64,000 nt of DNA from Bacillota bacterium. Lineage in GTDB: Bacteria > Bacillota > Clostridia > Lachnospirales > Cellulosilyticaceae. Under the pieces are notes generated by a model, which saw only the letters and a list, made by a program, of their open reading frames with translations, was not told where the DNA came from and made no database searches. Location: assembly GCA_023393125.1 (NCBI GenBank), contig JAEWMQ010000059.1, positions 1 to 64,000 on the forward strand. Reading direction: 5' to 3'. Below are positions 1 to 30,605 of the stretch, in pieces; the stretch's first letter is position 1; each line of letters begins with the position of its first letter. The position numbers and the translations under genes were made by a program.

Positions 1-73
1 AGCGCGAGACGGGACTCGAACCCGCGACCCTCTCCTTGGCAAGGAGATGCTCTACCAACTGAGCCACTCGCGC
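1..73 (-). tRNA. tRNA-Gly (anticodon GCC)
   Basis: Reverse complement folds as a 73-nt cloverleaf: acceptor GCGCGAG/CTCGCGC, D-arm GCTC-AGTTGGTA-GAGC, anticodon arm TCTCC-TTGCCAA-GGAGA (GCC), T-arm GCGGG-TTCGAGT-CCCGT. CCA is not encoded and the feature may begin at the window edge. Confidence 0.85.
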
Positions 74-78
74 ATAAA

Positions 79-196
79 TCTGGCAACCACTTACTCTCCC
101 AGTCCGTCTCCAGACAAGTACCATCAGCCGCTTAGGTCTTAACCTACGTGTTCGGAACGGAAACGGGTGTTTCCCCTAAGCGCATCATCACCAGAA
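79..196 (-). rRNA. rrf: 5S ribosomal RNA
   Basis: Reverse complement reads TTCTGGTGATGATGCG...CACCCGTTTCCGTTCCGAACACGTAGGTTAAGACCTAAGCGGCTGATGGTACTTG...GGGAGAGTAAGTGGTTGCCAGA. This matches the Firmicutes 5S layout (CCGAACACG-GTTAAGC core, closing helix TTCTGGTG/..GCCAGA), ~118 nt. Confidence 0.85.
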
Positions 197-5023: not shown

Positions 5024-6673
5024 TTAGAGTCCTAATTTTTCTTTATTCTTATTCAGTATTTGTTGTTGTAATTCTACAAGTTTGCTATAGCCAAGTGCAT
5101 CACGTTCTGTAACATATTTATTAAAGATCTCATCAAACTCTGCATCTGTTTTGGCTAGTAACAATTTTGGAAGTGTTTCACCCCATAGTCTTCCTATTTT
5201 AAGACTAATTACTTCTTCTTCTGTACCAACTGATGGAGTAAGTCCTTCATATTGAGATAAGAATGTTGTATATGGGTAAGTCCATTCTTCTAATTGTTTA
5301 AGTGGTTCTTGTGGTCCTTCTGACCATTGAAGCTGCATAGCTAAGTCTTGAAGCATCCAGAATGTATCATCTGCACCATATTTTCTATCATAAGCTGTAC
5401 GATCTGTTTGAAGGAGTTCTTTTACTTCTGGCTTAACTACTGGCTTACCATCTACCATATCATAAGTTTCACCTTCTGGCCCTAAGAATACCATTTTTTG
5501 ACCATGTTCACTCATTAAATAGCTTAAGAACTCAATAGCACGGTCAGGTCTTTCACAGTTTTTAGAAATAAGTGTTACAGTCCATCCTGCAATACCACCG
5601 CCTTGTAGCACAGGATCATCTCCATTAGAATTTTTGGGTCCATCTACTGCTATATAGATGCTATTTGGATCATTGTTATAAAGGATTTTTTGTTCTGCTG
5701 CAATATCTGTTCTTTGATACATCATGGCAAAGTAACGACCTTGCGCTATTTTCTCCGCCATTTGTGAACGTTTATCAATGAAAATGTCATCAGCTAGTAA
5801 ACCTTCTCTACCTGCTTCATTAAATACTTTTAACCAATTAACGTAATCTGGATCTGTCATTCTATCATAGAGTTCACCATCTTTTTCATATGGAATAGCT
5901 AAAAAGTCTTGTAAGTATTTTTCAATTGTGTAGTTACCTGTTTCAGTAAATTCATCAAAACCAATTGGAATAAGTGGCTGTCCATTTACTTCTGGGAACA
6001 TTTCTTTTGCTTTTTTAAGAGCACCTAAGAAGCCTTCAGGCGTACTCATATCTGGACTACCAATGGCTTCATATATATCTTTTCTTACTAAGAAAGTTTG
6101 ATTTGAAGCAATGTTATCATACTTTTCATAGTCTTCAGGTGAGAATGATGAGTTTGGATAGCCATAGATATTACCATCTTCTTGTGTATACCATCCTAAA
6201 CGTGATTCATCAGCTACTTTAAAGAAATAAGGGTCATATTGCTCTGCAAGTTCATTGAGTGCATATACCATATCACTATCAATCATCTCAGCAATCTGAC
6301 CTTCCCACCAACCTAATGTTATAAGGTCTGGAAGTGTATCTGAAGCAATCATCGTATTAAGCTTTTCTGCTTCATTACCTGCTGGCACAATAAACTCTAC
6401 ATTAACACCTGTCTCTTCTGTAATTTTTTGAGAAGTTATATCTTCTCCCCATGGTGTTGTAAACCATGAGAAATTCATATACCATTGTAAATCCACTTTA
6501 TCATCACTATTTCTTTGCCAGCCTGGTTCATCTGCTGAAAGCTCAGTGCCTGTAGTTGTTGCTGGTACTTGTCCGCCTTTATCATCTGTTTTGGCTGAGC
6601 CACAACCTACAGCTGAAGTGACTAACATACAAGCCATAGTTGCTGCAAAAGTTCTTTTTAGTCTTTTATTCAT
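5024..6673 (-). CDS. Extracellular solute-binding lipoprotein of a carbohydrate ABC transporter (LplA-like, large SBP family 1)
   Basis: 549 aa. Lipoprotein signal with lipobox (…LVTSAVGCGS). Size and composition typical of LplA/YesO-like oligosaccharide-binding proteins. Upstream of two permease genes. Confidence 0.85.
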   Translation of the reverse strand: MNKRLKRTFAATMACMLVTSAVGCGSAKTDDKGGQVPATTTGTELSADEPGWQRNSDDKVDLQWYMNFSWFTTPWGEDITSQKITEETGVNVEFIVPAGNEAEKLNTMIASDTLPDLITLGWWEGQIAEMIDSDMVYALNELAEQYDPYFFKVADESRLGWYTQEDGNIYGYPNSSFSPEDYEKYDNIASNQTFLVRKDIYEAIGSPDMSTPEGFLGALKKAKEMFPEVNGQPLIPIGFDEFTETGNYTIEKYLQDFLAIPYEKDGELYDRMTDPDYVNWLKVFNEAGREGLLADDIFIDKRSQMAEKIAQGRYFAMMYQRTDIAAEQKILYNNDPNSIYIAVDGPKNSNGDDPVLQGGGIAGWTVTLISKNCERPDRAIEFLSYLMSEHGQKMVFLGPEGETYDMVDGKPVVKPEVKELLQTDRTAYDRKYGADDTFWMLQDLAMQLQWSEGPQEPLKQLEEWTYPYTTFLSQYEGLTPSVGTEEEVISLKIGRLWGETLPKLLLAKTDAEFDEIFNKYVTERDALGYSKLVELQQQILNKNKEKLGL

Positions 6674-14948: not shown

Positions 14949-15010
14949 TATATGCCTCCATATATTATTACCATCTTTTATCGTACGATTTTACCTGACC
15001 CAATTCTATA

Positions 15011-16191: not shown

Positions 16192-17400
16192 ATGAAATAC
16201 CATTATAAACACACCATGTATGCCTCTTTTATTGGATATATTGTGCAAGCTATCATCAATAACTTTATACCTTTATTATTTTTAACTTTTCAAGCACTAT
16301 ATGATATACCCATTTCTAAAATCACTTTTTTAGTGACCTTCAATTTTGGAATACAATTAATAGTCGATTTTTTATCAGCAGGATTTATAGATAAAATCGG
16401 CTACAAGGCTTCCGTGATTATTGCCCATATTTTTTCAGCCTTAGGGCTTATATCACTCACTCTATTACCTGAATTTTTTAGTGATCCTTTTATAGGATTA
16501 TTGATTTCAGTCATGATTTATGCTGTGGGTGGTGGCCTTATCGAAGTGCTTATAAGTCCTATTGTAGAAGCTTGTCCAACAGATAATAAAGAAGCTGCCA
16601 TGAGCCTATTACATTCTTTTTATTGTTGGGGCCACGTAGGTGTAGTCTTACTATCCACCTTATTCTTTGTTTTATTTGATACTTCAGCATGGAAGGTGCT
16701 TGCACTCCTATGGGCTATCATCCCTATACTCAATACATTTTTCTTCGCAAAGGTTCCTGTTTCTCATTTAATTGAAGATAACGAAAATGGACTCACCTTA
16801 AAAGAAATGTTTTCAAAAAAAATATTTTGGAATATGATGCTTTTAATGATATGCGCTGGAGCAAGTGAACAAGCTGTTAGCCAATGGGCTTCAACCTTTG
16901 CAGAAAAAGGACTTGAGGTAAATAAGTTTATTGGAGACTTAGCAGGCCCTATGTTCTTTGCCACTATGATGGGACTATCAAGAACCTTGTATGGTAAATG
17001 GGGTGGGAAAATCAATCTTGAAAAAATGATGCTATGTAGTGGTTTTCTTTGCTTTTTAAGTTATCTTATTATTTCACTTTCCCCACTGCCTATACTAAGC
17101 CTTCTAGGCTGTGGCTTATGTGGCTTAGCTGTTGGTATTTTATGGCCTGGAACATTTAGCATGTCTTCTGCAAAAATGAAGAGAGGCGGAACAGCTATGT
17201 TTGCTTTTCTAGCACTAGCAGGAGATGTGGGCTGCTCTATTGGACCAACTGTGGTAGGTACAGTATCTGGCGTATTTAATAATAACCTTAGGGTAGGTAT
17301 TATAACTGCTACTATCTTTCCTGTCTTACTGATTATAGGCGTAATCATCTGTATGCTTATAAGCAGGCAACAAATACATAACTCGTCATATAATGATTAA
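16192..17400 (+). CDS. MFS transporter (12 TM), co-transcribed with the AraC regulator
   Basis: 402 aa, hydrophobic throughout. Starts 23 nt after the AraC stop. Confidence 0.75.
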   Translation: MKYHYKHTMYASFIGYIVQAIINNFIPLLFLTFQALYDIPISKITFLVTFNFGIQLIVDFLSAGFIDKIGYKASVIIAHIFSALGLISLTLLPEFFSDPFIGLLISVMIYAVGGGLIEVLISPIVEACPTDNKEAAMSLLHSFYCWGHVGVVLLSTLFFVLFDTSAWKVLALLWAIIPILNTFFFAKVPVSHLIEDNENGLTLKEMFSKKIFWNMMLLMICAGASEQAVSQWASTFAEKGLEVNKFIGDLAGPMFFATMMGLSRTLYGKWGGKINLEKMMLCSGFLCFLSYLIISLSPLPILSLLGCGLCGLAVGILWPGTFSMSSAKMKRGGTAMFAFLALAGDVGCSIGPTVVGTVSGVFNNNLRVGIITATIFPVLLIIGVIICMLISRQQIHNSSYND

Positions 17401-17420
17401 CTTGGGGGATTTGGCTGCAT

Positions 17421-17439
17421 AAATTGAAATTTGTAGGGG
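17421..17439. repeat. Left copy of an 18-19-nt direct repeat bounding the ORF-free block
   Basis: aaattgaaatttgtagggg matches aaatttcaatttgtagag at 18153-18170 at 16/18 positions. Confidence 0.4.
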
Positions 17440-17460
17440 CGTTTATGAAAAAAGGCTTGT

Positions 17461-17662
17461 GGGAGGAAATGGAAGGGGCAGGCCTATCTTCCAGTGTTCC
17501 GGTTCAAATTTTTTGAGGCACTAGGCTTACTTATTTGGATGAACGCACGAAAACTCCCGCTGGTCAGACACTCGTGCTAAAACCCATCCAAAACGTTCGC
17601 CAAGTGCCTCTAAAAAATTCTCCCAAGTCACCCTTCCAGATAGCCCTCCCCCTTCCATTTCA
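17461..17662. ncRNA. Candidate structured RNA: ~200-nt extended imperfect hairpin (6S-RNA-like or MITE-like)
   Basis: Outer arm 17461-17494 pairs with 17633-17662 (13 bp perfect, ~23/29 overall). There is an internal asymmetric bubble. An inner 16-bp stem pairs aattttttgaggcact (17506-17521) with agtgcctctaaaaaatt (17603-17619). Further inner stems are tggatg/catcca and gcacga/tcgtgc. GC-rich relative to flanks and ORF-free. Confidence 0.3.
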
Positions 17663-17748
17663 GCCAAACGTTGCCTAGCACATAAACGTCTCTACAGTGA
17701 GATGCACAGTGAAAAACATTATGCCCTTCCAAACGTACAAGCATAATA

Positions 17749-18130
17749 ACATATAGAGCTTCTTAATAGTTTGTTGTGGTAAAGGAGTAGCCATGCCAGT
17801 AGGGGATTGATGTGTGGTTCTTTAGATATAAGCTTAGTAATTCTTAATGGAGGGTTTCTCAGGCATCCCTTCAGCCTTAATAACGTATAAAGTTTCCTAA
17901 TAGTGGGTTATTGTAAAATAGTAGCTATATAGGGAGGCTAGTGGACTTGCTGGAAGATGCCTTGGAGCAGAGCTTAGAAACTCTTAATGAAGTAATCCTT
18001 ATGGGTTTTAGGGTGAGTGTCCCCGCGTAGCGAGTTTTCACCCGTTCATATGGATTACGAATTTAGAGTTTCTTAGCGGAGTGAGACAGCAGCTGTAAGC
18101 AAGTACACTAGTCGGACTACATAGCGGTGC
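17749..18130. repeat. Five degenerate tandem repeats (period ~60-95 bp) sharing an AGYTT...CTTAATRG core
   Basis: Cores at 17756-17768 (agcttcttaatag), 17831-17850 (agcttagtaattcttaatgg), 17891-17903 (agtttcctaatag), 17971-17990 (agcttagaaactcttaatga) and 18065-18079 (agagtttcttagcgg). Each is followed by a G-rich segment. Confidence 0.4.
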
Positions 18131-18152
18131 TTTGCTTTACGCCTTATTATTC

Positions 18153-18170
18153 AAATTTCAATTTGTAGAG
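18153..18170. repeat. Right copy of the direct repeat bounding the ORF-free block
   Basis: aaatttcaatttgtagag. See the left copy at 17421-17439. Confidence 0.4.
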
Positions 18171-18214
18171 TTAAATCATTAAGTCTGAACTTAATATAAA
18201 TAGATTTCTTTAAA

Positions 18215-18255
18215 TAGTAGAACATCAAAAAACACATCCTAACTTAGCTAGGATG
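18215..18255. terminator. Bidirectional rho-independent terminator
   Basis: aaaaaaCACATCCTAACttaGCTAGGATGTGttttttg. A 10/11-bp stem flanked by A6 and T6. It terminates the minus-strand flotillin gene and any plus-strand transcript of the upstream block. Confidence 0.8.
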
Positions 18256-18265
18256 TGTTTTTTGA

Positions 18266-20314
18266 TTAGGCCTTTGTGGTGGCCACTTCTAATTGAGTAT
18301 TTTTAATTTCTGCTAAAATCTGTTCTTTAATGCGCTCCACTTCCTCAGATTCCTGGAAACTTTCATTGCCGTTTAAAGCAGTTAGCTTTTCACTCATTAA
18401 AAGCATAATGAGGGATTCAAAAGCATTAACGCCTTGGCCTTCTCCTCCTGCTTGAATAACTGTCTTAGGTACGATGTCAATCTTACCTTCTTTAACAGCT
18501 TTAGAGAATTCACTCATCACATCGTTAATAACCTTGTACTGTGGACCACCGTAAGCATTAACTTGTTCTCTAGCAGCTATAGCTTTTGAGATACCTACTC
18601 TTGCTTCTTTATCAGCTTCGGCTTCTGCTGTTACTTTTATTCTAAATGCTTCACCTTCTGATTGCTTTTTAATCTTATAAGAATCTGCTTCTGCTAGGCG
18701 CTGAATCTTTTCAGCATCTTGTTTAGCTTTCATCAGCTCAGCTTTACCTTGGTTTTCTTGAATTCTAATATTAATATCAGACTCAGTTAAGGTGGTTTGT
18801 TGTTTAGCTACTGCTTCTGCTTCTCTTAATTCCTTTTCTTTTTCTGCTGCTTTTTGTTGGGTTTCGTAGGTCTCTAATTGCTCTTTAGCAATTTGTCTGC
18901 TGCGAAGCTGTGTAAGAATGGTTTCTATATTAGAATCTGAAGTTGAGCTACCTGGTGTACCAATAAGTACTTCTTCTAACTCTAAATTATAATGCTCAAA
19001 GCGTTCTCTCATCTCCATAGCACTTTGGCTCTGGATTTCATTTCTTTGCTGCAAGAGTTCAATGAGTGTTTTCGTTTGCCCTATATTTTTAAAGTAAGCA
19101 GAAATCATAGGATCTAAGGTTTGATCAACTAGCATCTTTACATTCCCAAAACGTTGAATAACATAAGGTGCTTTTCGATAATCAATATGGAATACAACAG
19201 ATAGTGGTAAGGTTGGCTCAAAAGCATCCTTTGTGATAAGACTAACTTCTTTAAGGTTCTCATCATATTTGTGATTCCCTGTTTGATTAGAAATCCATTT
19301 TAAAATAACATTGGTTGTAGGCACTTTTACAATGCTTCCTGCATAGGTATTAAAAGCATATTTACCTGGCATTAATGGCTCGTTCCATACCCCCCTATAC
19401 CCTTTTCCAACAAGTTCTCCGTGCTTATAATCATTACCAGAAGAATCTTCACCCTTTGCGCCAGTATAAGAAACAACTACTCCTACAAAACCTACTTCAA
19501 TGATTACTTTAGGAATATATTCAATAGTTGCAAAAAGTCTATTAATAAAATAAGTACCATCTGCTAAAACCTGATATTGTCTACCTCTATAACCACCAGC
19601 CTTTAAAAAGGCATCAATATCTTGAAAATTGTTATGATAATGTGGATCAGTTGCTACATCTCCTACTGTTGGACAAATAATATTGCCACTACCTAAAGAT
19701 GGTCCATCGTGGACCGTTACAATACCAATTTCATCTTTTTCCCCTTGAATGACAACTGGCCTAAAACCATTTCTATTTTTAATAAGCTCTGACATTTGCA
19801 TAAGCGTGTCTTGCTCTGCCCTATTACCTATTTTTAAGCAGTGCGTCTTATCTTCAGTAATAATCACAAATTGTGCTAGGTTAAAAGCATAAGTTCCCTC
19901 ACGAATAATACCTTGTTGTGGTCCTTTTTGTCCTTTATTTTGTAAAAAGGCCCTTACATTTTGAAAATTATTAGACTCTTTAACAATCCTGCCTAAAGTT
20001 TGTGTAGCTTCTAAAGACTCTCCGTCTCTTGCAAATACATAAGCTATTTTTCCTTGTGGTACTGTTACAAGAGGTACCGTATGTACCTTGTAGAGAAGTG
20101 GTGATTTAAAATGAATACCTCCTCTTAAAAGGTCAGGCTGATAACCGGCTTCTCCATTTAAAGCAATGATTTGCTCCTTTAGAGAACCTTTAGGAGACCA
20201 CCATTTTTCAACGATTCCTACTCTATCATTAGGGATAATTTTAAAACCAACGAGCCAAAAGAATAAAATAACTGCTATGATTCCTACTCCGCAACCTACA
20301 ATTATACTAATCAT
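18266..20314 (-). CDS. Flotillin / SPFH (band-7) family membrane protein, YqiK/FloT-like, unusually long (682 aa)
   Basis: N-terminal TM helix (IIVGCGVGIIAVILFFWLVGF), then an SPFH domain. C-terminal Glu/Ala/Lys-rich coiled coil (…KAAEKEKELREAEAVAKQQ…AEAEADKEARV…) typical of flotillins. Confidence 0.8.
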   Translation of the reverse strand: MISIIVGCGVGIIAVILFFWLVGFKIIPNDRVGIVEKWWSPKGSLKEQIIALNGEAGYQPDLLRGGIHFKSPLLYKVHTVPLVTVPQGKIAYVFARDGESLEATQTLGRIVKESNNFQNVRAFLQNKGQKGPQQGIIREGTYAFNLAQFVIITEDKTHCLKIGNRAEQDTLMQMSELIKNRNGFRPVVIQGEKDEIGIVTVHDGPSLGSGNIICPTVGDVATDPHYHNNFQDIDAFLKAGGYRGRQYQVLADGTYFINRLFATIEYIPKVIIEVGFVGVVVSYTGAKGEDSSGNDYKHGELVGKGYRGVWNEPLMPGKYAFNTYAGSIVKVPTTNVILKWISNQTGNHKYDENLKEVSLITKDAFEPTLPLSVVFHIDYRKAPYVIQRFGNVKMLVDQTLDPMISAYFKNIGQTKTLIELLQQRNEIQSQSAMEMRERFEHYNLELEEVLIGTPGSSTSDSNIETILTQLRSRQIAKEQLETYETQQKAAEKEKELREAEAVAKQQTTLTESDINIRIQENQGKAELMKAKQDAEKIQRLAEADSYKIKKQSEGEAFRIKVTAEAEADKEARVGISKAIAAREQVNAYGGPQYKVINDVMSEFSKAVKEGKIDIVPKTVIQAGGEGQGVNAFESLIMLLMSEKLTALNGNESFQESEEVERIKEQILAEIKNTQLEVATTKA

Positions 20315-20530: not shown

Positions 20531-21517
20531 TCATTTATAATAATAACTTTCGTAAATAGATTCTATTAGCTTTTGGGCTTTATCTTGTCGTGGCCTCTCT
20601 GGTAACTTGGTAAGCTGAGCTGCTTTATTAAAATGCTTTTCATAGCTATCTACAATTTTAAATATCTGGTCCCAGCTATACTCTCCATGCCTAATACTTA
20701 ATAATGTAGGTAAGTGTTTCTCTAATCTTGTGTGAATACCCTTGCCTTCTAATATATACGTGCCTGTTATCAGTATTCTTACTAAATGCATGGCATGCTT
20801 ATATAATTTACTTTCTTCTTTCTTATGATTACGATGTGTAAGCTTTTCATAGCTTTTGATAGTATTAGTCATATTGGCATAAATACTTGTGAAATCTCTT
20901 AAAGGGTAATCTTCTAAGTGAATGGTCGTTCTTAGATCTTGGCTCTCTCCATCCACATAAACGACTATACTGTCTTTATCAAAAGAAGTATAATCATCAT
21001 TAAATTGTTTAATTTGTCTGGAAATTGTAGCTGCTATATGCTGCTCCTTTAATACTTGGCTGGCACTATTTTGTGCTAGCGCATTTTGAAGTCTTCTAAG
21101 CTGAGCCATTGCATAACCACCAAAAGTATCTGCAACTTTTTGAGATAAGAAAAGCTCTGTATTGTCTCTTAGAAGCTTTCCTTGTGGTGTCATTTGATAA
21201 ATGCAATCTTCATCTATGCCTAATAATTCCAAGGTTTGGGGGTTGGCATTCAATCCTAATCTTACAAATTTCTTTAGGCCAAAGATAACTGTGTCTGTAT
21301 GAAGGTCTTCGTACTGTTCAAAGCTTTCTAATCCAAATAGTACTTCCTTTCCTTCTATGGTACAGCCACGTAAATCTATATCGCTATTTTCATATTGGGT
21401 TCCATAACCGTATGAGCCACTCACCACTAAATATAAAATTCTATCGCCTAGCGCCTTTTCGTTATTTAAAAACTCATAGTCTTTACTTTCTAATTGCTCT
21501 GTAACTTCTATTTTCAT
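20531..21517 (-). CDS. Pol-beta-superfamily nucleotidyltransferase, paralog B
   Basis: The ORF runs to 21529 (GTG). The probable ATG start is at 21517 (MKIEV…), preceded by AGGTGAG. NTase motif VSGSYGYGTQYENSDIDLRG (GS-x10-DxD). C-terminal helical region. 8 nt downstream of paralog A. Confidence 0.7.
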   Translation of the reverse strand: MKIEVTEQLESKDYEFLNNEKALGDRILYLVVSGSYGYGTQYENSDIDLRGCTIEGKEVLFGLESFEQYEDLHTDTVIFGLKKFVRLGLNANPQTLELLGIDEDCIYQMTPQGKLLRDNTELFLSQKVADTFGGYAMAQLRRLQNALAQNSASQVLKEQHIAATISRQIKQFNDDYTSFDKDSIVVYVDGESQDLRTTIHLEDYPLRDFTSIYANMTNTIKSYEKLTHRNHKKEESKLYKHAMHLVRILITGTYILEGKGIHTRLEKHLPTLLSIRHGEYSWDQIFKIVDSYEKHFNKAAQLTKLPERPRQDKAQKLIESIYESYYYK

Positions 21518-21525
21518 CACTTCTC

Positions 21526-22302
21526 TCACCTAATTAACCAATTTCTAAAACACTCATCTAATAACTTTGCCTCTTTAAGTGCTGTAGTTGGTTTAGCTTC
21601 CTGTAAATAGTCATCACAGACTAATAAAACTTTTTCTATATAACCAAGCAACTTAGTGTGAGGTCCTATGACATAAGCTTCATCTACAGTTACTTTTAAT
21701 TCTATTAAATATTTAATCTCTGATATTAACTCTAGTTCTAGATTTAAGCTTTCCATAAGCTGATTGATTTCCATTGGTGGAATACTATGATGGTTTAATA
21801 CATAATCACAAGCTAATGCACTTCGTAAAGCATAAAAGTAAGCCTTCAGTTTACCTAATGGCGTTTCCTTGATTTGTTGCACTTTGTTATAAGCTAAGCT
21901 TTTGTAGTGGTATAGTGCTGTTTTCTCATTAAAATAAATCACCGCTAATGCCATACATTGCTCTCTAAACTCCTTTTCTTCCCGATAAACAATCGGAGAC
22001 TGTAACCACTCCCATACTGTTGGGTTAGATTTTCTGATATGAATGAGTAGCTTTTTTAAATCCCAACCATCTACATCATATACCTCATCTACAGGAAGGC
22101 TTATATGGTCTGTTACTTCTCCTATGGTTAAATATTTCTCCAAAGACTGAGTATATACAAAACGACAATCATAATCTGAGTCAATCGAAGGGAACCCCCA
22201 TCCCCTACTTCCTGATTCTATGGCCATTAAAATATGAATGTGCTTTTCATTTTCCAGTTCATTTAAAGTTTGTTTAATATTATTTACAATCATTGGATTC
22301 AT
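21526..22302 (-). CDS. Pol-beta-superfamily nucleotidyltransferase, paralog A (ANT(6)/KNTase-like or RlaP-like fold)
   Basis: 258 aa. Motif AIESGSRGWGFPSIDSDYDCRFVY (GS-x10-DxD). Resembles the streptomycin adenylyltransferase core EGSR…DYDITYFV. Confidence 0.7.
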   Translation of the reverse strand: MNPMIVNNIKQTLNELENEKHIHILMAIESGSRGWGFPSIDSDYDCRFVYTQSLEKYLTIGEVTDHISLPVDEVYDVDGWDLKKLLIHIRKSNPTVWEWLQSPIVYREEKEFREQCMALAVIYFNEKTALYHYKSLAYNKVQQIKETPLGKLKAYFYALRSALACDYVLNHHSIPPMEINQLMESLNLELELISEIKYLIELKVTVDEAYVIGPHTKLLGYIEKVLLVCDDYLQEAKPTTALKEAKLLDECFRNWLIR

Positions 22303-24324: not shown

Positions 24325-25785
24325 TTATTTATGAAGTATACTAAGCCATGTCCATTCACCATAATCTTCTTCTTTTAGTAATAATCGACTTATATTGACA
24401 CCTAAAAATACTAATATAGTAATGGCTACAAAAATAAAGTTTCTGGTTTCAGAGGTCATATCTAGTTGAATAAAAATTGAGTTTAAAGGTAACAATCTCT
24501 TTAAGTTACTTGTGTACAACACAAATCCAATACCAAAGTTAGTCATACCAGCTAAAAATTGAACACTAAAAATGGCTATGCTTAATCTCATGATAAAACT
24601 TTTATCTAGGACACCTTTTTTACTTTTTCTTTCTCTCAGTATCCATGTTACAGCAAAAAAAGTTACCATGTTCATACTTATGCATAATACAGTACTTGCT
24701 ATCCCTTTGCCAAACAATAGCTCCGAACTAATGAATATTGTGTTTGTTAGTGAGGTAGTAACAGAACTGCTGATTAAAACTAATAATCCAATGCTAATTA
24801 GTCCTACTTTTGAACGTTTCATCTGTACTATTATGCTCCCTATCCCTACATTTAAAACTGTAGCTACCATACCTACCAATAGGCCAACAAAAGCCCCTTC
24901 TCCTAAACTCTTTAGACCTATACTTTCTATGTTAATACCCTCTTTAAGAAACGGAGTGACTATCATCAATAATCCTAACCCACTTCCTACTAGTACAGCC
25001 AAAGAACCTTTAGATACATATTCCTCATTTTTCTCCTCAAATTTTGGAGTAAATAAGCTCCTGCCAATCATATATAGTGGTACACTTAAGACCACAAATA
25101 AAATGACTATACTTATGTTGATAAGTCTCCCTATACCCAGATCTCCATGTGACCATATATATCGCTCTGTAAAAAATAGTCCCCATTGTTCCAACTGCGA
25201 AGATCCAAATGCATAGTTTTGATCTATTCCAAAACTAAACTGAGACATTGTCATAAAATTAATCAGAGCTAAGAAGATTGCTGAAGTCCATACAATTTTA
25301 AAATTAATATTTCTTTTTCTTTCTATATATTTTAGTACAATAAGTATCAGAAACCCTAATCTAAATACAATGATTCCTAATACCACCCACCTAAAATCTC
25401 TACTTAGCCCTATATCACTTGGTACTAACTTTTCAATCCACAGGCTTAATACAATCATGGGCAATACAAATAAAAATCCCCAGAAACCTATAAGCCCATT
25501 CCTAATACGGTTATTCTTAATTGTCTTAAATACAGTTCCAATTACACCCAAGATAATAAATAACACCATTGATATCTCAGAATTAATTTTTAGAACATCT
25601 ACTAAATTATCCTTTGCATATTCAAAAGAATAATTTAGTCCTGGTATTGGTTTAACTACACAACCAACAACTACCAGTCCTATAGTGAAAAATACATAAA
25701 CCCCTAAAATGACTACTGCTAAAACTCCCCACATACTTTTTCTTATTTTTACTGGTTCTTTTAAAATCTCCTGCTCCATTATCAT
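24325..25785 (-). CDS. Polytopic membrane protein of unknown function (≥12 TM)
   Basis: 486 aa, hydrophobic throughout. No recognisable catalytic or transport signature. Confidence 0.6.
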   Translation of the reverse strand: MIMEQEILKEPVKIRKSMWGVLAVVILGVYVFFTIGLVVVGCVVKPIPGLNYSFEYAKDNLVDVLKINSEISMVLFIILGVIGTVFKTIKNNRIRNGLIGFWGFLFVLPMIVLSLWIEKLVPSDIGLSRDFRWVVLGIIVFRLGFLILIVLKYIERKRNINFKIVWTSAIFLALINFMTMSQFSFGIDQNYAFGSSQLEQWGLFFTERYIWSHGDLGIGRLINISIVILFVVLSVPLYMIGRSLFTPKFEEKNEEYVSKGSLAVLVGSGLGLLMIVTPFLKEGINIESIGLKSLGEGAFVGLLVGMVATVLNVGIGSIIVQMKRSKVGLISIGLLVLISSSVTTSLTNTIFISSELLFGKGIASTVLCISMNMVTFFAVTWILRERKSKKGVLDKSFIMRLSIAIFSVQFLAGMTNFGIGFVLYTSNLKRLLPLNSIFIQLDMTSETRNFIFVAITILVFLGVNISRLLLKEEDYGEWTWLSILHK

Positions 25786-27485: not shown

Positions 27486-30400
27486 TTACACTCTTAATTT
27501 AATATCTATTTTACTTACTTGGTGACTTCTTACATCCTCAGCCATTTTACCTACTAACTTGCCTTCGGCTACTTTGCTAGTACCATCTTTGTAAGTAAGC
27601 GTTATGTCCATCACGTGAACTGTTCCTGGTATAATATCTTTCTTCTCTGTGAAGCTATAAACGACTTCAATGTCGCCTAAGAACTGACATTTCACTGTCT
27701 TATCTTCGCCAATCAAATAGGCTGGAAGTGCTGGTGTAAAGCTTAATGTTAATACGCCTTCTTCTACTTTAAATGGTGCTTCACCAATCATCATGATTTG
27801 CCACATATGAAGGAATTCTGCTGTGGAACCACTTAATCTTGCTACAAAGCCTCTACCGTGAATCTTTTCATTAGGATTTGCACTACTTGCTATAAAGGAA
27901 GAGTTTTCTAAAATACTTCTGCCATATATCTTTGGATCAAGAAATGGTACCAGTGCATTTTTAAGTGATTCAAAGTACTCTTCATATAAACCTGTTCTAA
28001 GAAGTTCAAGTAAATATTTGTATTCCATATGAAGCCAGATAGACTCATTTTCTAACCAACCTGGTGTAAAGGCTTTGGCACGGCCTACTTCAAAAGAAGT
28101 ATCTTTTAATGGCGCGTTTACCTTATACATTTTAAGCTCTTCATCATAAAGGGCACTTGCTTTTACTTTTGCATGTAGCTCCTTAGCTACTTTTTTACTC
28201 TCGCCCACTTTTAGATATCTTACTGGTCCTTCTAAGAAGTAAGGCATATTAATCACATTAAACTGACGAGGAATGATTACATCACCCTCTTTATCATACT
28301 CACTCACTTCATAAGTGAAGTAAGTTGGGCATAGCCCTTCTCCGTAAGCTATAGCCTTTTCAGTTCCTTCATGTAATTTTTCAAGCCATGACTCTAGAAT
28401 GGTTTCTATTTCACTGTTACTAAGTGTTTGTTTTTCTCCTTCAATTCCCCATAAAACAGCCGCTCTATACGCTTCTTTCACTTCATTTACTTGATTCCAG
28501 TATTCAAGCTCTGTGATTTTTTCACCTTTATAGCGTACAAGTGCTTCTTGAATCCCTTTAATAAAAGTCATCATTTCAGTTGGTAAGGTTACGTTTTCAG
28601 GATAGGCTTTAATGATTTTTAACATAAATTCTACCATGCGGTATAACTCATAAGTTTCTGCCATGGAGGAACCGAAAATACCTGGAAGACCATTTAAGGC
28701 ATCATACCAACCTGGTTTACCACCTTCCATTTCAATCCCCATACCATATGGATCTAAGGTAGCAAATTTGTTAGTAGCTAAAATCATCATTTTTTCAAAC
28801 AGATTAGAAGTATAAGTTTCACCCTTGCCGTTCTTTTCTCTGGCTACTTTATGAGTAACCTCTGCTTTAATGTGGTGATCAACTGCATTGTATTGTCTTA
28901 CGCCATTTTCAGTTAATACATAGCGCTCACTTCTTGGTCTAACAGTTGCCCGACTTTCAAAGTAAGTATAAGTATGATCATCAAAAAGTAATGCTTTTTC
29001 TGCTTCTGGATAAATCCCTAAATAACTTTCAATTAAGTCTATATTATAAGTCCAGTGATCTGTCCAGTAGCCTTCACCAAATACAGCTTCTGTATGAGGC
29101 TCTGATACTTTCATTAATTCAGAGATAAAATCTTCTCTTGAAACTTCTAAATCAACATTGTTATCTGTAAGAGCTTTAAGCACACCACCTGGTGTAAAGG
29201 CCTTTGATAGAAGTTCTTTAAGCAGTTCATTTTCTCCTACTGTTTTTAAGATAGTCTGTTGATTCTCTTTGGTCAGTGTATAGTTAACCCCTTGTACTCC
29301 TAGTGGATTATAACCATCTAATTGAATAAGGTTATAAAAGGTTTTAACATTATAGTCTTTTACAAAATCTGCAAAATAAACATCTAAACGTCTATTTTGG
29401 TTCACATCTCTAAAGTTAGCATTCCCTTGTGAATAGAACTCTGGACTCATGCTAAAGAAGTTGTAATCTCTTTCTGTATCTCCATGTTTACGAGAATAGA
29501 CGTGATAAATATTTTCTTCTCCTAACTTTAGAGGCATACCACCACGAAGGACATTATCAAGATAAGTTTGTTTACAGTAAGCATCAAATACTGGTGAAGC
29601 TGTCTTAGTCTCTATTACCTTGCAAATATCTTCTGTAAGAGCTTTGGCTTCTTGGTATTTATTTTCAAAGTAACTGCTTCCTGTTACCTTACTTTGGAAT
29701 TTTGTAAGCTGCATCTTATTTTCTACTTGCCCAATTAAACTATAGAAAGTGTATGTTTCTCCTGGACTTAAAGTCACTATGCCACTAAAGAAACCACATG
29801 GAAGTGCATTTTGACAAATTTGTTTTTCGCTAAGGTAGGCTGCTCTGTCTTTTGTGATAAAGCCTAGTGGTCTAGTAAGAGAAGTGTTTTGCATAAAGAC
29901 TACTTCACTATCCACTACTGCTGGCAATAACTCACCTTTTTCAGTCATTGTGAGGTAGAAGTGCCCTCCCTTAACTTCTTTAACAACAGCAGAGTCTTCC
30001 ATACTAGCACGTACGGAATAAAATGGTACTTTCTCTTCCACGTCTTGAACCTGCATCCACGCTTTAACGGTTTGTCCCATCATTTTCATAGCACCTAAAT
30101 CTACACCGTATGGAATCACTTGTGGCATCCCATCTAGGAATTCTACTTGAAGGGTTTTTTCACTAATATTTTTAAGAGTTACTTGACGTACTAATCCTCC
30201 GATTTCTTCATTTGGTAAAGTAAAATAAAGAGCATTAGTTTGAATCCCTTCCATGGGATTCTTTTCTTCTACTTCCATCTCGTTAGAACCAATATACATG
30301 ACTCTCTCTACGCCTTCTTCTTTGGCGTATTCATTATAAAATGGTTCATAGTATTTTCCATCTACTTTAAGGAAAGTTCTAAAACCAACTGTACTCGCAT

Positions 30401-30605
30401 TTTGATAGGCTTGCTGAGCAGCATGGAACTCCATAATGGAGTGATTTTTATCTCTTACCCCAAAGCTTGAAACACCTTGTCCTCTATTAACATAAAAACA
30501 CCAAATAGGAATCCCCATAATACCACTAATTCCTGGTAGAAAGCTAGCAAAAGTAGGACTATTGGTGTAATCTTCTATAATAAATCTGTTATTGTTATCA
30601 AACAT
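27486..30605 (-). CDS. Large cytoplasmic glycoside hydrolase/phosphorylase-like protein of unresolved family
   Basis: 1039 aa, no signal peptide. Acidic and aromatic-rich, with a length and composition typical of large (alpha/alpha)6 GH families (GH94/GH149/GH161-like). The family cannot be assigned by eye. Confidence 0.45.
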   Translation of the reverse strand: MFDNNNRFIIEDYTNSPTFASFLPGISGIMGIPIWCFYVNRGQGVSSFGVRDKNHSIMEFHAAQQAYQNASTVGFRTFLKVDGKYYEPFYNEYAKEEGVERVMYIGSNEMEVEEKNPMEGIQTNALYFTLPNEEIGGLVRQVTLKNISEKTLQVEFLDGMPQVIPYGVDLGAMKMMGQTVKAWMQVQDVEEKVPFYSVRASMEDSAVVKEVKGGHFYLTMTEKGELLPAVVDSEVVFMQNTSLTRPLGFITKDRAAYLSEKQICQNALPCGFFSGIVTLSPGETYTFYSLIGQVENKMQLTKFQSKVTGSSYFENKYQEAKALTEDICKVIETKTASPVFDAYCKQTYLDNVLRGGMPLKLGEENIYHVYSRKHGDTERDYNFFSMSPEFYSQGNANFRDVNQNRRLDVYFADFVKDYNVKTFYNLIQLDGYNPLGVQGVNYTLTKENQQTILKTVGENELLKELLSKAFTPGGVLKALTDNNVDLEVSREDFISELMKVSEPHTEAVFGEGYWTDHWTYNIDLIESYLGIYPEAEKALLFDDHTYTYFESRATVRPRSERYVLTENGVRQYNAVDHHIKAEVTHKVAREKNGKGETYTSNLFEKMMILATNKFATLDPYGMGIEMEGGKPGWYDALNGLPGIFGSSMAETYELYRMVEFMLKIIKAYPENVTLPTEMMTFIKGIQEALVRYKGEKITELEYWNQVNEVKEAYRAAVLWGIEGEKQTLSNSEIETILESWLEKLHEGTEKAIAYGEGLCPTYFTYEVSEYDKEGDVIIPRQFNVINMPYFLEGPVRYLKVGESKKVAKELHAKVKASALYDEELKMYKVNAPLKDTSFEVGRAKAFTPGWLENESIWLHMEYKYLLELLRTGLYEEYFESLKNALVPFLDPKIYGRSILENSSFIASSANPNEKIHGRGFVARLSGSTAEFLHMWQIMMIGEAPFKVEEGVLTLSFTPALPAYLIGEDKTVKCQFLGDIEVVYSFTEKKDIIPGTVHVMDITLTYKDGTSKVAEGKLVGKMAEDVRSHQVSKIDIKLRV

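What the first reader, a model, noticed from the sequence alone, without database searches (positions are those of the whole stretch)
17749..18130. Five degenerate tandem repeats with a conserved AGYTT…CTTAATRG core and G-rich tails
- **Repeat units:** they begin at about 17756, 17831, 17891, 17971 and 18065 (periods 60-95 bp). They share AGCTT(n)TAAT(A/G)G-like cores followed by G-rich segments (ggtaaaggagtagcc, ggagggtttctcagg, gggttattgtaaaatagtagc, gggttttagggtgagtg, ggagtgagacagcagc).
- **Coding potential:**
  - In one frame the cores translate to a recurring LxxLNxx(L/I)L-like peptide (ELLNSLLW, LVILNGGFL, LETLNEVIL, LEFLSGV). Each such frame is interrupted by stops.
  - A TTG/GTG-initiated ~28-30-codon ORF with an AGGGAGG RBS sits at ~17935-18030 (…LLEDALEQSLETLNEVILMGFRVSVPA).
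- **Interpretation:** these could be the eroded remains of a repeat-protein gene, a cluster of small peptide genes, or repeated RNA modules. The array is not CRISPR-like: spacing is irregular and identity is about 60 %.
Basis: seen in the sequence. Interest (0 to 1): 0.55.

Follow-up and report, generated by a model that had tools for sequence, protein, structure and literature searches.

The report
Conserved long-hairpin noncoding element cluster
The "five repeats" are arm motifs of three copies of one long RNA-type hairpin module, inside a ~750-base non-coding element of gut Clostridium that is conserved, covaries strongly and matches no catalogued RNA family, but whose function is unknown.

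Summary
The repeated cores are real: four of the six + strand matches to AGYTT…CYTAATRR in the 64 kb lie at 17757, 17831, 17891 and 17971. They do not form a five-unit tandem array. There is one two-copy tandem duplication (17744-17852 vs 17878-17992, 70% identity). The fifth "unit" is the base-pairing partner of the fourth.

The finding covers only part of an ORF-free, GC-enriched element at about 17419-18168. It lies in the 865-nt gap between an MFS transporter gene and an SPFH gene. It holds two long hairpins:
- H1, 17432-17696
- H2, 17924-18125, an inverted paralogue of H1
- HA, 17831-17893, a truncated third copy

I recovered homologues by searching for spurious ORFs that gene callers had placed on them.
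- The composite element, or H1 alone, sits at several unrelated loci in gut metagenome contigs.
- Its core is nearly invariant.
- Covariation is strong: 13 of 60 pairs in H1 and 33 of 68 in H2 show compensatory changes, with 0 of 500 shuffles reaching this.

There is no coding signal and no Rfam match even at E ≤ 10. There are no matches in the phage or plasmid collections, and no conserved terminal inverted repeats.

Best reading: a new family of structured hairpin RNA modules. A palindromic mobile DNA element is the main rival.

The parts
17419..18168 (.). Whole composite non-coding element: H1, a variable linker and H2. It is conserved as a unit in other contigs.
   Evidence: - blastn and MAFFT against L086, L087, L089, L091 and L092 give 72-93% identity across H1, linker and H2, with unrelated flanks.
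- There is a sharp left boundary at 17419, shared by the window, L087, L088 and L093.
- GC is 41-46%, against about 35% in the flanking genes and 25% in other intergenic gaps.
- No ORF is longer than 47 aa.
17432..17696 (-). H1: a 265-nt imperfect hairpin. The strand given is the one that carries the conserved apex motif and folds better.
   Evidence: - Self-inverted match, E = 5.7e-10; helices listed.
- MFE is -121.6 kcal/mol on the - strand and -113.2 on the + strand.
- In 9 homologues: 60 pairs, 97.4% of cells paired, 13 pairs with compensatory changes, 0 of 500 shuffles as high, and 0-2 such pairs in slid controls.
- On the + strand there are 7 A·C cells against 1 G·U cell.
17466..17661 (-). 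Nearly invariant core of H1. It comprises a closing helix, a central internal loop, a 16-19-bp inner helix and the apex.
   Evidence: Alignment A3. Only 16 of 58 sites in the 5' arm (17484-17541) and 10 of 61 sites in the 3' arm (17585-17645) vary among 9 sequences.
17490..17506 (-). H1 central internal loop, one side.
   Evidence: Largely unpaired in the MFE and in the consensus fold. The sequence is almost invariant across homologues.
17620..17637 (-). H1 central internal loop, the other side (GGAAGGGUGACUUGGGAG on the - strand).
   Evidence: As for 17490-17506. It is paralogous to the H2 loop CUGGAAGAUGCCUUGGAG (read from the sequence).
17539..17587 (-). H1 apex: the conserved asymmetric internal loop GGUUUUAG / CGUU, a covarying 6-bp stem (17545-17550 / 17572-17577) and a variable apical loop.
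   Evidence: - Inverted paralogue of 18001-18049, 71% identity over 49 nt.
- The stem occurs as GCACGA, GUGUCA, GCACAA, GUGCGA, GUGGCA and GCAUGA, each with its exact complement. Columns 142-144 / 188-190 have 4 of 9 sequences changed on both sides.
17697..17923 (.). Variable linker between H1 and H2. It contains the window-specific tandem duplication.
   Evidence: In the alignment, the stretch of about 17750-17875 has no aligned counterpart in L086, L089 or L091; L089 instead carries a related stretch inserted elsewhere in its linker. The stretch is partly present in L087.
17744..17877 (+). Unit A of the tandem duplication.
   Evidence: Direct repeat 17744-17852 vs 17878-17992, 115 nt, 70% identity. 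Repeat families D1 and D2. The H2 profile hits 17768-17857 on the + strand, E = 2.8e-7.
17831..17893 (+). HA: a truncated third hairpin copy. It has the 5'-arm motif AGCUUAGUAAUUCUUAAUGGAGGG and a short apex, but lacks the conserved apex motif.
   Evidence: Local hairpin 17832-17854 / 17867-17893 in the MFE. The 5' arm is 86% identical to that of H2 (D2). The same mini-hairpin is present in L087.
17878..17992 (+). Unit B of the tandem duplication.
   Evidence: The stretch TTGTAAAATAGTAGCTATGTAGGGAGG is conserved in L087, L089 and L091, and partly in L086 and L092.
17924..18125 (+). H2: a hairpin of about 200 nt. It has an outer stem, a central internal loop of about 20 x 20 nt (17952-17971 / 18078-18097), an inner stem and an apex.
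   Evidence: - Inverted match 17924-18003 / 18047-18125.
- MFE is -87.0 kcal/mol on the + strand and -79.0 on the - strand.
- In 5 homologues including the distant L084: 68 pairs, 94.4% of cells paired, 33 pairs with compensatory changes, 0 of 500 shuffles as high, and 2-10 such pairs in slid controls.
- On the + strand there are 24 G·U cells against 6 A·C cells.
18001..18049 (+). H2 apex: the GGUUUUAG / CGUU internal loop, a covarying stem (18011-18017 / 18037-18043) and the apical mini-stem CGC-GUA-GCG.
   Evidence: Three-way alignment with H1 and L084. The stem is CAC/GUG, GGU/ACC or GUC/GAC. The covariance model R1 finds only these three sites in about 1.07 Mb.
18061..18077 (+). It is the 3'-arm partner of core 4 (17972-17988).
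   Evidence: Inverted repeat I7, 17 nt, 88% complementary. Pairs 17972-17988 / 18061-18077 in the MFE covary in A4 (helix 5).
17421..17433 (.). Left end motif AAATTGAAATTTG, identical in inverted orientation to 18152-18164.
   Evidence: Repeats I5 and D4. It is conserved in L087, L088 and L093. The long-range pairing is not kept in L089.
18152..18164 (.). Right end motif CAAATTTCAATTT, the inverted copy of 17421-17433.
   Evidence: Repeats I5 and D4. L089 has only weakly similar sequence here.
17941..18030 (+). I judge it non-coding.
   Evidence: Listed. It has a stop in L086 and loses its start codon in L092. Substitutions in its apex-stem part are compensated on the opposite arm.

Best explanation
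The region is a cluster of three copies of one long-hairpin non-coding module. H1 is full length and inverted, HA is truncated, and H2 is full length. Together with a variable linker they form a composite element of about 750 nt.

**Shown**
- Each full module folds into a rod of roughly 60-95 base pairs: a closing stem, a sequence-invariant internal loop, an inner stem, a conserved asymmetric loop (GGUUUUAG / CGUU) and a variable tip.
- The stems keep their pairing through many double substitutions, while the loops stay constant.
- The module is not translated.
- The composite, or H1 alone, recurs at unrelated loci in other gut Clostridium contigs.

**Inferred**
- The constraint acts on a folded single strand, most likely RNA.
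- The rod serves to present its invariant loops to a sequence-specific partner, either a protein or another nucleic acid.
- H1 is probably read on the - strand and H2 on the + strand, as two divergent transcripts of about 200-290 nt starting in the linker.
- The + strand is probably also transcribed by read-through from the MFS gene, because no terminator intervenes. There the hairpins would act as a structured 3' end.

For: **Structure**
- MFE z-scores for the 865-nt gap are -8.6 (+ strand) and -7.6 (- strand).
- Covariation: H1 has 13 pairs and H2 has 33 pairs with compensatory changes. None of 500 shuffles reached this, and slid controls stayed far below.
- A 2-bp apical mini-stem also appears to covary (CC/GG, GC/GC, AC/GU; read by eye).

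**Paralogy**
- The H1 profile hits H2 on the opposite strand (E = 5e-8).
- The H2 profile hits H1 on the opposite strand (E = 1e-7) and unit A on the same strand (E = 3e-7).

**Uneven conservation**
- The H1 core is nearly invariant, whereas the outer stem and the linker are only about 60-75% identical. This pattern fits purifying selection better than recent spread of copies.

**Polarity**
- The motif strand folds 7-8 kcal/mol better in H1, H2 and L084.
- G·U against A·C cells are 1:7 for H1 and 24:6 for H2, both counted on the + strand.

**Not coding**.

**Context**
- GC enrichment.
- Other loci: beside a eut operon (L086), a PNPOx gene (L087), an amidohydrolase gene (L085), and between trx and an AraC gene (L084).
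- The left-hand gene runs in the + direction in 5 of 5 informative loci.
- No terminator-like site was found between the MFS stop codon (17400) and the element.
Against: - There are no expression data, so strand and transcript ends are inferred only.
- The polarity counts are small. They point to opposite strands for H1 and H2, which is awkward for a single transcript.
- H1 is almost purely Watson-Crick (1 G·U in 530 cells). That is unusual for an RNA helix and typical of DNA palindromes.
- No convincing conserved sigma-70 promoter or canonical terminator could be placed (and inspection).
- Truncated and rearranged copies (L085, L094, L086) and internal duplications look like the behaviour of a repeat element.
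- Only about 12 homologous contigs were found, and none lay in 80 loci from other Clostridium species.
Confidence: 0.5

Rival explanations
1. A non-autonomous mobile or recombination-spread DNA element of the palindromic, foldback or MITE/ERIC-like kind. Arm complementarity would be kept by DNA-level processes such as template-switch correction of quasi-palindromes. Any RNA structure would be a by-product.
For: - It is found at unrelated loci.
- There are truncated half-copies with a shared break point (L085 and L094), an extra 3' arm in L086 and a window-specific tandem duplication.
- Many carrier contigs are short or end inside the element.
- H1 stems are almost purely Watson-Crick.
- The window has a 13-bp perfect inverted motif at both ends.
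- The left boundary at 17419 is sharp.
Against: - The terminal inverted repeats are not conserved: L089 has none.
- I saw no target-site duplication when inspecting the window's and L084's ends.
- There is no second copy in the 64-kb window and none in 80 related loci.
- No transposase lies nearby.
- Conservation is strongly uneven, with invariant unpaired loops. Neutral decay of a selfish repeat would not produce this.
- Short, low-coverage contigs also break elsewhere, for example at 14997 and 20381. The contig breaks are therefore weak evidence.
Confidence: 0.27
2. One large structured RNA of about 750 nt on the + strand. It would be an independent gene or a long 3' UTR of the upstream gene, with H1 and H2 as two domains closed by the helix 17408-17431 / 18154-18177.
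For: - The composite H1-linker-H2 is kept as a unit in the window, L086, L089 and L091. L087 and L092, whose contigs are cut inside H2, show the same arrangement.
- The full + strand folds 22 kcal/mol better than the - strand.
- The upstream gene is co-oriented in 5 of 5 loci.
- Summed G·U counts favour the + strand, 25 against 13.
- The invariant loops of H1 and H2 are mutually complementary on one strand (I12 and I1).
Against: - The closing helix is not conserved in L089.
- H1 occurs alone in L088/L093 and L090, and an H2-like hairpin occurs alone in L084.
- H1 taken alone favours the - strand.
- The linker varies in length and sequence.
- L086 has its own terminator between the upstream gene and the element (sequence).
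Confidence: 0.13
3. A hairpin that is active as single-stranded DNA, such as a single-strand replication origin or a single-strand promoter of an integrated rolling-circle or conjugative element.
For: - The shape fits: long imperfect hairpins with a conserved loop sequence. The H2 tip contains TAGCGA, which resembles the CS-6 motif of ssoA origins as I recall it (not tested here).
- The function would depend on orientation.
- The stems are nearly free of G·U pairs.
Against: - The full 865-nt gap at E ≤ 1e-5 found nothing in 72,556 plasmid records or 50,697 phage records. The 91-nt H2 apex at E ≤ 1 found no plasmid match and only five chance-level phage matches, 24 nt each inside terminase genes.
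- Three viral-contig pattern scans found nothing.
- All flanking genes are ordinary chromosomal genes, with no Rep, relaxase or integrase.
Confidence: 0.04
4. Protein-coding: eroded remains of a repeat-protein gene, or a set of small peptide genes. Candidates are the 29-aa ORF at 17941-18030 and the 46-aa ORF on the - strand at 17527-17667.
For: - Gene callers placed ORFs over H1 homologues that share GLSGRVTWENFLEALGERFGWVL.
- An AGGGAGG sequence sits 7-9 nt before the GTG at 17941.
Against: - Variable sites fall 15/14/14 over the three codon positions.
- The C-terminal halves of the called ORFs read in three different frames.
- Paralogues use different frames and carry stops.
- The 29-aa ORF is broken in L086 and L092.
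- None of the window's small ORFs is in the 15-billion-protein collection.
- The non-coding partner arm is conserved to a similar degree.
Confidence: 0.02
5. The cognate RNA of the neighbouring SPFH/RlaP gene cluster. As I recall, Burroughs and Aravind (2016) predicted a tRNA-like RNA for SPFH-centred RNA-repair systems. The paper could not be opened here.
For: The element lies directly downstream of an SPFH gene that is preceded by two RlaP (PF10127) genes.
Against: - ARAGORN finds no tRNA-like fold.
- None of the contigs carrying homologues has an SPFH or RlaP gene among its called genes.
- 80 loci with SPFH homologues lack the element.
Confidence: 0.03

Closest known systems
ERIC / IRU and other interspersed palindromic repeats of bacteria (REP/BIME, Correia, RUP, BOX)
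   Same: - Imperfect palindromes that lie in intergenic DNA, often just downstream of genes.
- Found at many unrelated loci, with truncated and clustered copies.
- The hairpin is kept by compensatory changes, and the element is presumed to act as RNA within longer transcripts. This description of the known families is from my general knowledge.
   Different: - The modules are much longer (about 200-270 nt, against 35-155 nt).
- They have sequence-invariant internal loops and a conserved asymmetric apex loop.
- They occur as a conserved inverted pair with a linker.
- No copy-number information is available, and no conserved terminal repeats or target duplications were found.
6S RNA (Rfam RF00013)
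   Same: A rod-shaped RNA of about 200 nt: closing stem, large central internal loop, inner stem and terminal loop. In H1 the central loop is about 17 x 18 nt and in H2 about 20 x 20 nt.
   Different: - No match to the 6S model or to any other Rfam model, even at E ≤ 10.
- It occurs as inverted paralogues, truncated copies and at varying loci.
- L084 has only a small central loop.
- Nothing links it to RNA polymerase.
Large ornate bacterial ncRNAs (OLE, GOLLD, ROOL)
   Same: - Several hundred nucleotides long, GC-enriched relative to an AT-rich Firmicute genome, free of ORFs and with covariation-supported structure.
   Different: - No Rfam match.
- The architecture is two simple rods rather than a multi-junction fold.
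- The domains also occur alone.
- No phage association was found.
MITEs (miniature inverted-repeat transposable elements)
   Same: Free of ORFs, a few hundred bp long, folds back on itself, and is inserted in intergenic DNA at different loci.
   Different: - In a MITE the termini are conserved and the interior is free to vary. Here the interior is conserved and the termini are not.
- There is no target-site duplication and no related transposase.

Membership tests
MITE / non-autonomous DNA transposon | Terminal inverted repeats conserved among copies | tested here: not met
   The window has 26-nt ends that are 81% complementary, with a 13-bp perfect core. L089, the only homologue with both flanks, shows no terminal inverted repeat or closing helix.
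MITE / non-autonomous DNA transposon | Target-site duplication flanking the element | tested here: inconclusive
   I saw no exact direct repeat at the ends of the window element or the L084 hairpin. No empty site was available for comparison.
MITE / non-autonomous DNA transposon | Many near-identical copies within one genome, and a related autonomous element with a transposase | not testable with these tools
   Only 64 kb of the host genome is available and it holds one locus.
ERIC-like interspersed palindromic repeat | Imperfect palindrome in intergenic DNA at multiple unrelated loci | tested here: met
   Hairpins H1 and H2. Homologues lie beside eut, PNPOx, amidohydrolase, and trx/AraC genes.
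ERIC-like interspersed palindromic repeat | Hairpin maintained by compensatory substitutions | tested here: met
   13 and 33 pairs with changes on both sides, and 0 of 500 shuffles as high.
ERIC-like interspersed palindromic repeat | Sequence homology to ERIC, REP, BOX, RUP or Correia consensus sequences | not tested
   No library of these consensus sequences was available. The host is a Clostridium, which lies outside the hosts I know for those families.
6S RNA | Match to the 6S covariance model | tested here: not met
   No Rfam match of any kind at E ≤ 10 over 17400-18200, on either strand.
6S RNA | Rod with a large central bubble flanked by closing and inner stems | tested here: inconclusive
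   H1 and H2 have this outline. The distant member L084 has only a loop of about 7 x 7 nt.
6S RNA | Binds RNA polymerase holoenzyme and templates product RNA | not testable with these tools
   This needs biochemistry.
Known Rfam families (OLE, GOLLD, ROOL, HEARO, group I/II introns, ribozymes, riboswitches) | Score at or near the family's gathering threshold | tested here: not met
   for the window, and for the homologous loci. The only hits there are an unrelated T-box and a group II fragment far from the element.
CRISPR array | Regularly spaced, near-identical short direct repeats | tested here: not met
   No tandem array. There are two copies at 70% identity with a period of about 134 nt. 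Pfam scans of 16 ORFs in the window returned no Cas domains.
Protein-coding gene (repeat protein or small peptides) | Open frame kept among homologues, with a third-codon-position excess of substitutions | tested here: not met
   (15/14/14 by codon position). The 29-aa ORF is broken in L086 and L092.
Single-strand origin (sso) or single-strand promoter of plasmids | Located on rolling-circle or conjugative replicons next to rep or relaxase genes | tested here: not met
   No real plasmid or phage match. The flanks are chromosomal.
SPFH/RlaP-associated tRNA-like RNA | tRNA-like fold and conserved linkage to SPFH or RlaP genes | tested here: not met
   ARAGORN finds nothing. There is no linkage in the homologous contigs or in 80 SPFH loci.

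The most novel reading that the evidence does not exclude
H1 and H2 are genes for a previously undescribed class of rod-shaped regulatory RNA in gut Clostridium. The invariant internal loops, held open by covarying stems, would bind and sequester a specific protein in the way 6S or CsrB-type RNAs do. Alternatively, the 750-nt composite is a new two-domain large ncRNA.
Probability: 0.3. Interest if true: 0.7.

Novelty: new variant of a known kind. Interest (0 to 1): 0.55.

Why it matters
If this is a functional RNA, it adds a new, well-supported structured RNA family from human-gut Clostridium. The family has an unusual pattern: loops that are almost invariant sit inside stems that covary. That pattern usually marks a specific binding partner. 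Few long structured RNAs of unknown function are known in bacteria (from my general knowledge), and each is a lead to new biochemistry.

If it is instead a palindromic repeat element, it would be an unusually long one with unusually uneven conservation, in a group where I know of no described family of this kind.

Either way, the 865-nt "gap" is not junk. The small ORFs that gene callers place on it in metagenomes are spurious.

Tried and rejected
**Database and search attempts that found nothing relevant**
- Rfam at gathering threshold, at E ≤ 1 and at E ≤ 10.
- Tandem Repeats Finder.
- blastn against phages and plasmids, with the full region and with the 91-nt H2 apex. The only hits were chance 24-nt matches inside Listeria phage terminase genes.
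- Viral-contig pattern scans with three different conserved motifs: 0 hits.
- PADLOC and NCBIfam on the neighbouring genes: nothing relevant.
- One literature search for a described Clostridium hairpin repeat found nothing pertinent.

**A poorly spent scan**
- I used the only genome-collection scan on the neighbouring SPFH protein. It returned 80 Clostridium loci, but none has the element or any synteny. In hindsight the scan should have been kept for a DNA pattern.

**Look-ups that gave little**
- An exact look-up of the window's small ORFs found none in the protein collection.
- Contigs from the same species (L081-L083) are almost identical to the window and end inside the gap. I first read this as a sign of repetitiveness. 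I dropped that reading because the same contigs also break in ordinary sequence.

**Hypotheses tested and dropped**
- SPFH/RlaP cognate RNA: no tRNA-like fold and no co-occurrence. The Burroughs and Aravind 2016 paper could not be opened.
- Closing helix or terminal inverted repeats: not conserved in L089.
- Promoter and terminator placement by eye and by scan: inconclusive.
- Resemblance to Cas9 guide or tracrRNA sequences (GUUUUAG, AGUCGG…GGUGCUUU): judged coincidental. The pairing pattern differs, and Pfam scans of 16 ORFs in the window returned no Cas domains.
Full report
**Setting.**
- The finding (17749-18130) lies in an 865-nt gene-free gap, 17401-18265.
- On the left is an MFS transporter gene (16192-17400, + strand). 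On the right is a 682-aa SPFH/Band-7 gene (18266-20314, - strand), which is preceded by two RlaP nucleotidyltransferase genes.
- The host is a Clostridium. The SPFH protein is about 80% identical to those of the C. sartagoforme / C. celatum group.
- The gap has 41-46% GC, against about 35% in the flanking genes and about 25% in other intergenic gaps of the window.
- No ORF in the gap exceeds 47 codons.

**Checking the observation.**
AGYTT(N0-9)CYTAATRR has six + strand matches in the 64 kb, four of them at 17757, 17831, 17891 and 17971.
- CYTAATRR occurs five times in 250 nt here, the densest spot in the window. None of 5000 shuffles of the gap reached four.
- Tandem Repeats Finder sees no array.
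- The actual direct repeat has two copies with a period of about 134 nt: 17744-17852 vs 17878-17992, 115 nt, 70% identity, E = 1.7e-9. Each copy carries two cores.
- The fifth "unit" at about 18065 is the reverse-complement partner of the fourth (17972-17988 / 18061-18077, 88% complementary).

**What is actually there.**
- The whole gap folds far better than shuffled sequence on both strands, with z = -8.6 and -7.6.
- Two long hairpins dominate: H1 (17432-17696) and H2 (17924-18125).
- The apex of H1, read on the - strand, is a paralogue of the apex of H2 on the + strand (49 nt, 71% identity). The stem between the conserved blocks changes in a compensatory way, from CAC/GUG to GGU/ACC.
- Profile searches confirm three related copies in the window:
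  - the H1 profile hits H2 on the opposite strand;
  - the H2 profile hits H1 on the opposite strand;
  - the H2 profile hits unit A (17768-17857) on the same strand.
- Unit A ends in a truncated hairpin, HA (17831-17893).
  - cores 1 and 3 are two copies of an upstream box;
  - cores 2 and 4 are two copies of the 5'-arm motif;
  - core 5 is the 3' arm of H2.

**Finding relatives.**
- Rfam gives nothing, even at E ≤ 10.
- The full gap has no match in the phage or plasmid collections, and the H2 apex only five chance 24-nt phage matches.
- The 80 Clostridium loci fetched through the SPFH protein contain neither the element nor the window's gene order.
- A metagenome scan with the apex pattern returned one distant relative, L084. 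It is a solitary hairpin of about 180 nt between a thioredoxin gene and an AraC-family gene. It has the same apex and a third stem variant, GUC/GAC.
- I then translated the apex region and searched the protein collection for spurious ORFs that gene callers had placed on homologues. This gave ten such ORFs from ENA metagenome assemblies; one sample (ERZ918825) is labelled human gut metagenome. A second search with the + strand ORF gave one more.
- Their contigs (L085-L094) show the following.
  - The composite H1-linker-H2 is conserved as a unit at 72-93% identity in L086, L089 and L091. L087 and L092, which are cut inside H2, show the same arrangement.
  - H1 occurs alone in L088/L093 and L090.
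  - Only half of H1 survives in L085 and L094.
- The flanking genes differ from locus to locus: a eut operon, a PNPOx gene and an amidohydrolase gene among them. In all five informative loci the gene on the left runs in the + direction towards the element.
- The stretch of about 17750-17875 (most of unit A) has no aligned counterpart in L086, L089 or L091, although L089 carries a related stretch elsewhere in its linker. It is partly present in L087.

**Structure is under constraint.**
- For H1 (9 sequences), a 60-pair consensus hairpin is 97.4% paired. Thirteen pairs changed on both sides. None of 500 column shuffles reached this, and versions with the partners slid gave 0-2 such pairs.
- The H1 apex stem occurs in six fully complementary versions.
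- For H2 (5 sequences including L084), 68 pairs are 94.4% paired, and 33 show compensatory changes. Again 0 of 500 shuffles reached this, and slid controls gave 2-10.
- Conservation is very uneven. Both arms of the H1 core, including a largely unpaired internal loop of about 17 x 18 nt, are nearly invariant, whereas the outer stem and the linker diverge.

**It is not coding.**
- Paralogous copies use different frames and carry stops.
- The called ORFs share GLSGRVTWENFLEALGERFGWVL and then continue in three different frames.
- Variable sites fall 15/14/14 over the three codon positions.
- The 29-codon ORF at 17941-18030 is interrupted in L086 and loses its start codon in L092.
- The window's small ORFs are absent from the protein collection.

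**Which strand, and one molecule or several?**
- In H1, H2 and L084, the strand that carries the GGUUUUAG…CGUU apex motif folds 7-8 kcal/mol better than its complement.
- Counted on the + strand, H1 has 1 G·U cell against 7 A·C cells, and H2 has 24 against 6.
- This weakly favours the - strand for H1 and the + strand for H2, that is, two divergent units.
- Several observations argue against an obligatory single molecule:
  - the long-range helix that closes the whole region in the window (17408-17431 / 18154-18177) is not kept in L089;
  - the hairpins can occur alone;
  - the linker is variable.
- On the other hand, the upstream gene is always co-oriented, and no terminator-like site was found between the MFS gene and the element. 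Read-through transcription of the + strand is therefore likely.
- I could not place convincing conserved promoters or terminators.

**Interpretation.**
- The best-supported reading is a new family of long-hairpin non-coding modules. They are present here as a cluster of three copies and are constrained as a folded single strand, most probably RNA. The covarying stems display invariant loops to some partner.
- The main rival is a palindromic DNA repeat element. In its favour:
  - the varied loci;
  - the truncated and rearranged copies;
  - the almost purely Watson-Crick H1 stems.
- Against it:
  - no conserved termini;
  - no target duplication;
  - no transposase nearby;
  - no further copy within the window;
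  - invariant loops, which neutral decay would not preserve.
- A single 750-nt RNA, a single-stranded-DNA element, a coding region and an SPFH/RlaP-linked RNA were all considered and rank lower, for the reasons given under the rival explanations.

**Novelty and score.**
- The element matches no Rfam 15 family and none of the named repeat families I could test. In outline it resembles ERIC-like palindromic repeats and 6S-type rod RNAs, but it fails the testable membership criteria of both.
- I rate it a new variant of a known kind.
- Interest is moderate (0.55). The covariation and conservation are strong and the family is undescribed, but only about a dozen members were found and its function, strand and mobility remain open.

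Noticed in passing
L088:542-911 and L090:71-444: An ORF-free region of about 370 nt ('Y') is shared at 72% identity. It lies next to H1 copies but on opposite sides of them. It folds well, has no Rfam match and is absent from the window. It may be another uncatalogued structured element travelling with this family.
   Followed up: partly
window 20531-22302 and 18266-20314: Two adjacent RlaP (PF10127) nucleotidyltransferase genes sit directly upstream of a 682-aa SPFH/Band-7 gene, with no RNA ligase beside them. tblastn of the window's neighbouring proteins, RlaP included, against the 80 Clostridium loci fetched with the SPFH protein gave only SPFH hits in the 35 loci whose results I printed. 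There were no PADLOC hits.
   Followed up: partly
window 18224-18266: A 21-bp, 95% complementary hairpin flanked by A and T runs overlaps the SPFH stop codon. It looks like a bidirectional terminator. The terminator scan missed it because the T run forms part of the stem.
   Followed up: no
L085:4975-5105 and L094:46-150, 479-517: Half-copies of H1 (one arm only) share the same break point in the apical loop. L094 carries a second, inverted fragment about 330 nt away.
   Followed up: partly
L086:1-115: A second copy of the H2 3' arm follows H2 before the contig ends, a local duplication different from the one in the window.
   Followed up: no
L091:1-61: The contig ends in the Nextera adapter sequence CTGTCTCTTATACACATCTCCGAGCCCACGAGAC. 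This is an assembly artefact in the public record.
   Followed up: yes
window 27486-30605, 24325-25785 and 5024-6673 (all - strand): ORFs of 1039, 486 and 549 aa have no Pfam match. The first two also have no PADLOC match.
   Followed up: no
L084:1862-2111: A T-box leader match (79.7 bits, below the gathering score of 93) lies upstream of the trp genes on the contig that carries the solitary hairpin. This looks ordinary.
   Followed up: no
window 1-195: A tRNA gene and a 5S rRNA gene lie on the - strand at the start of the window, marking the end of an rRNA operon.
   Followed up: no
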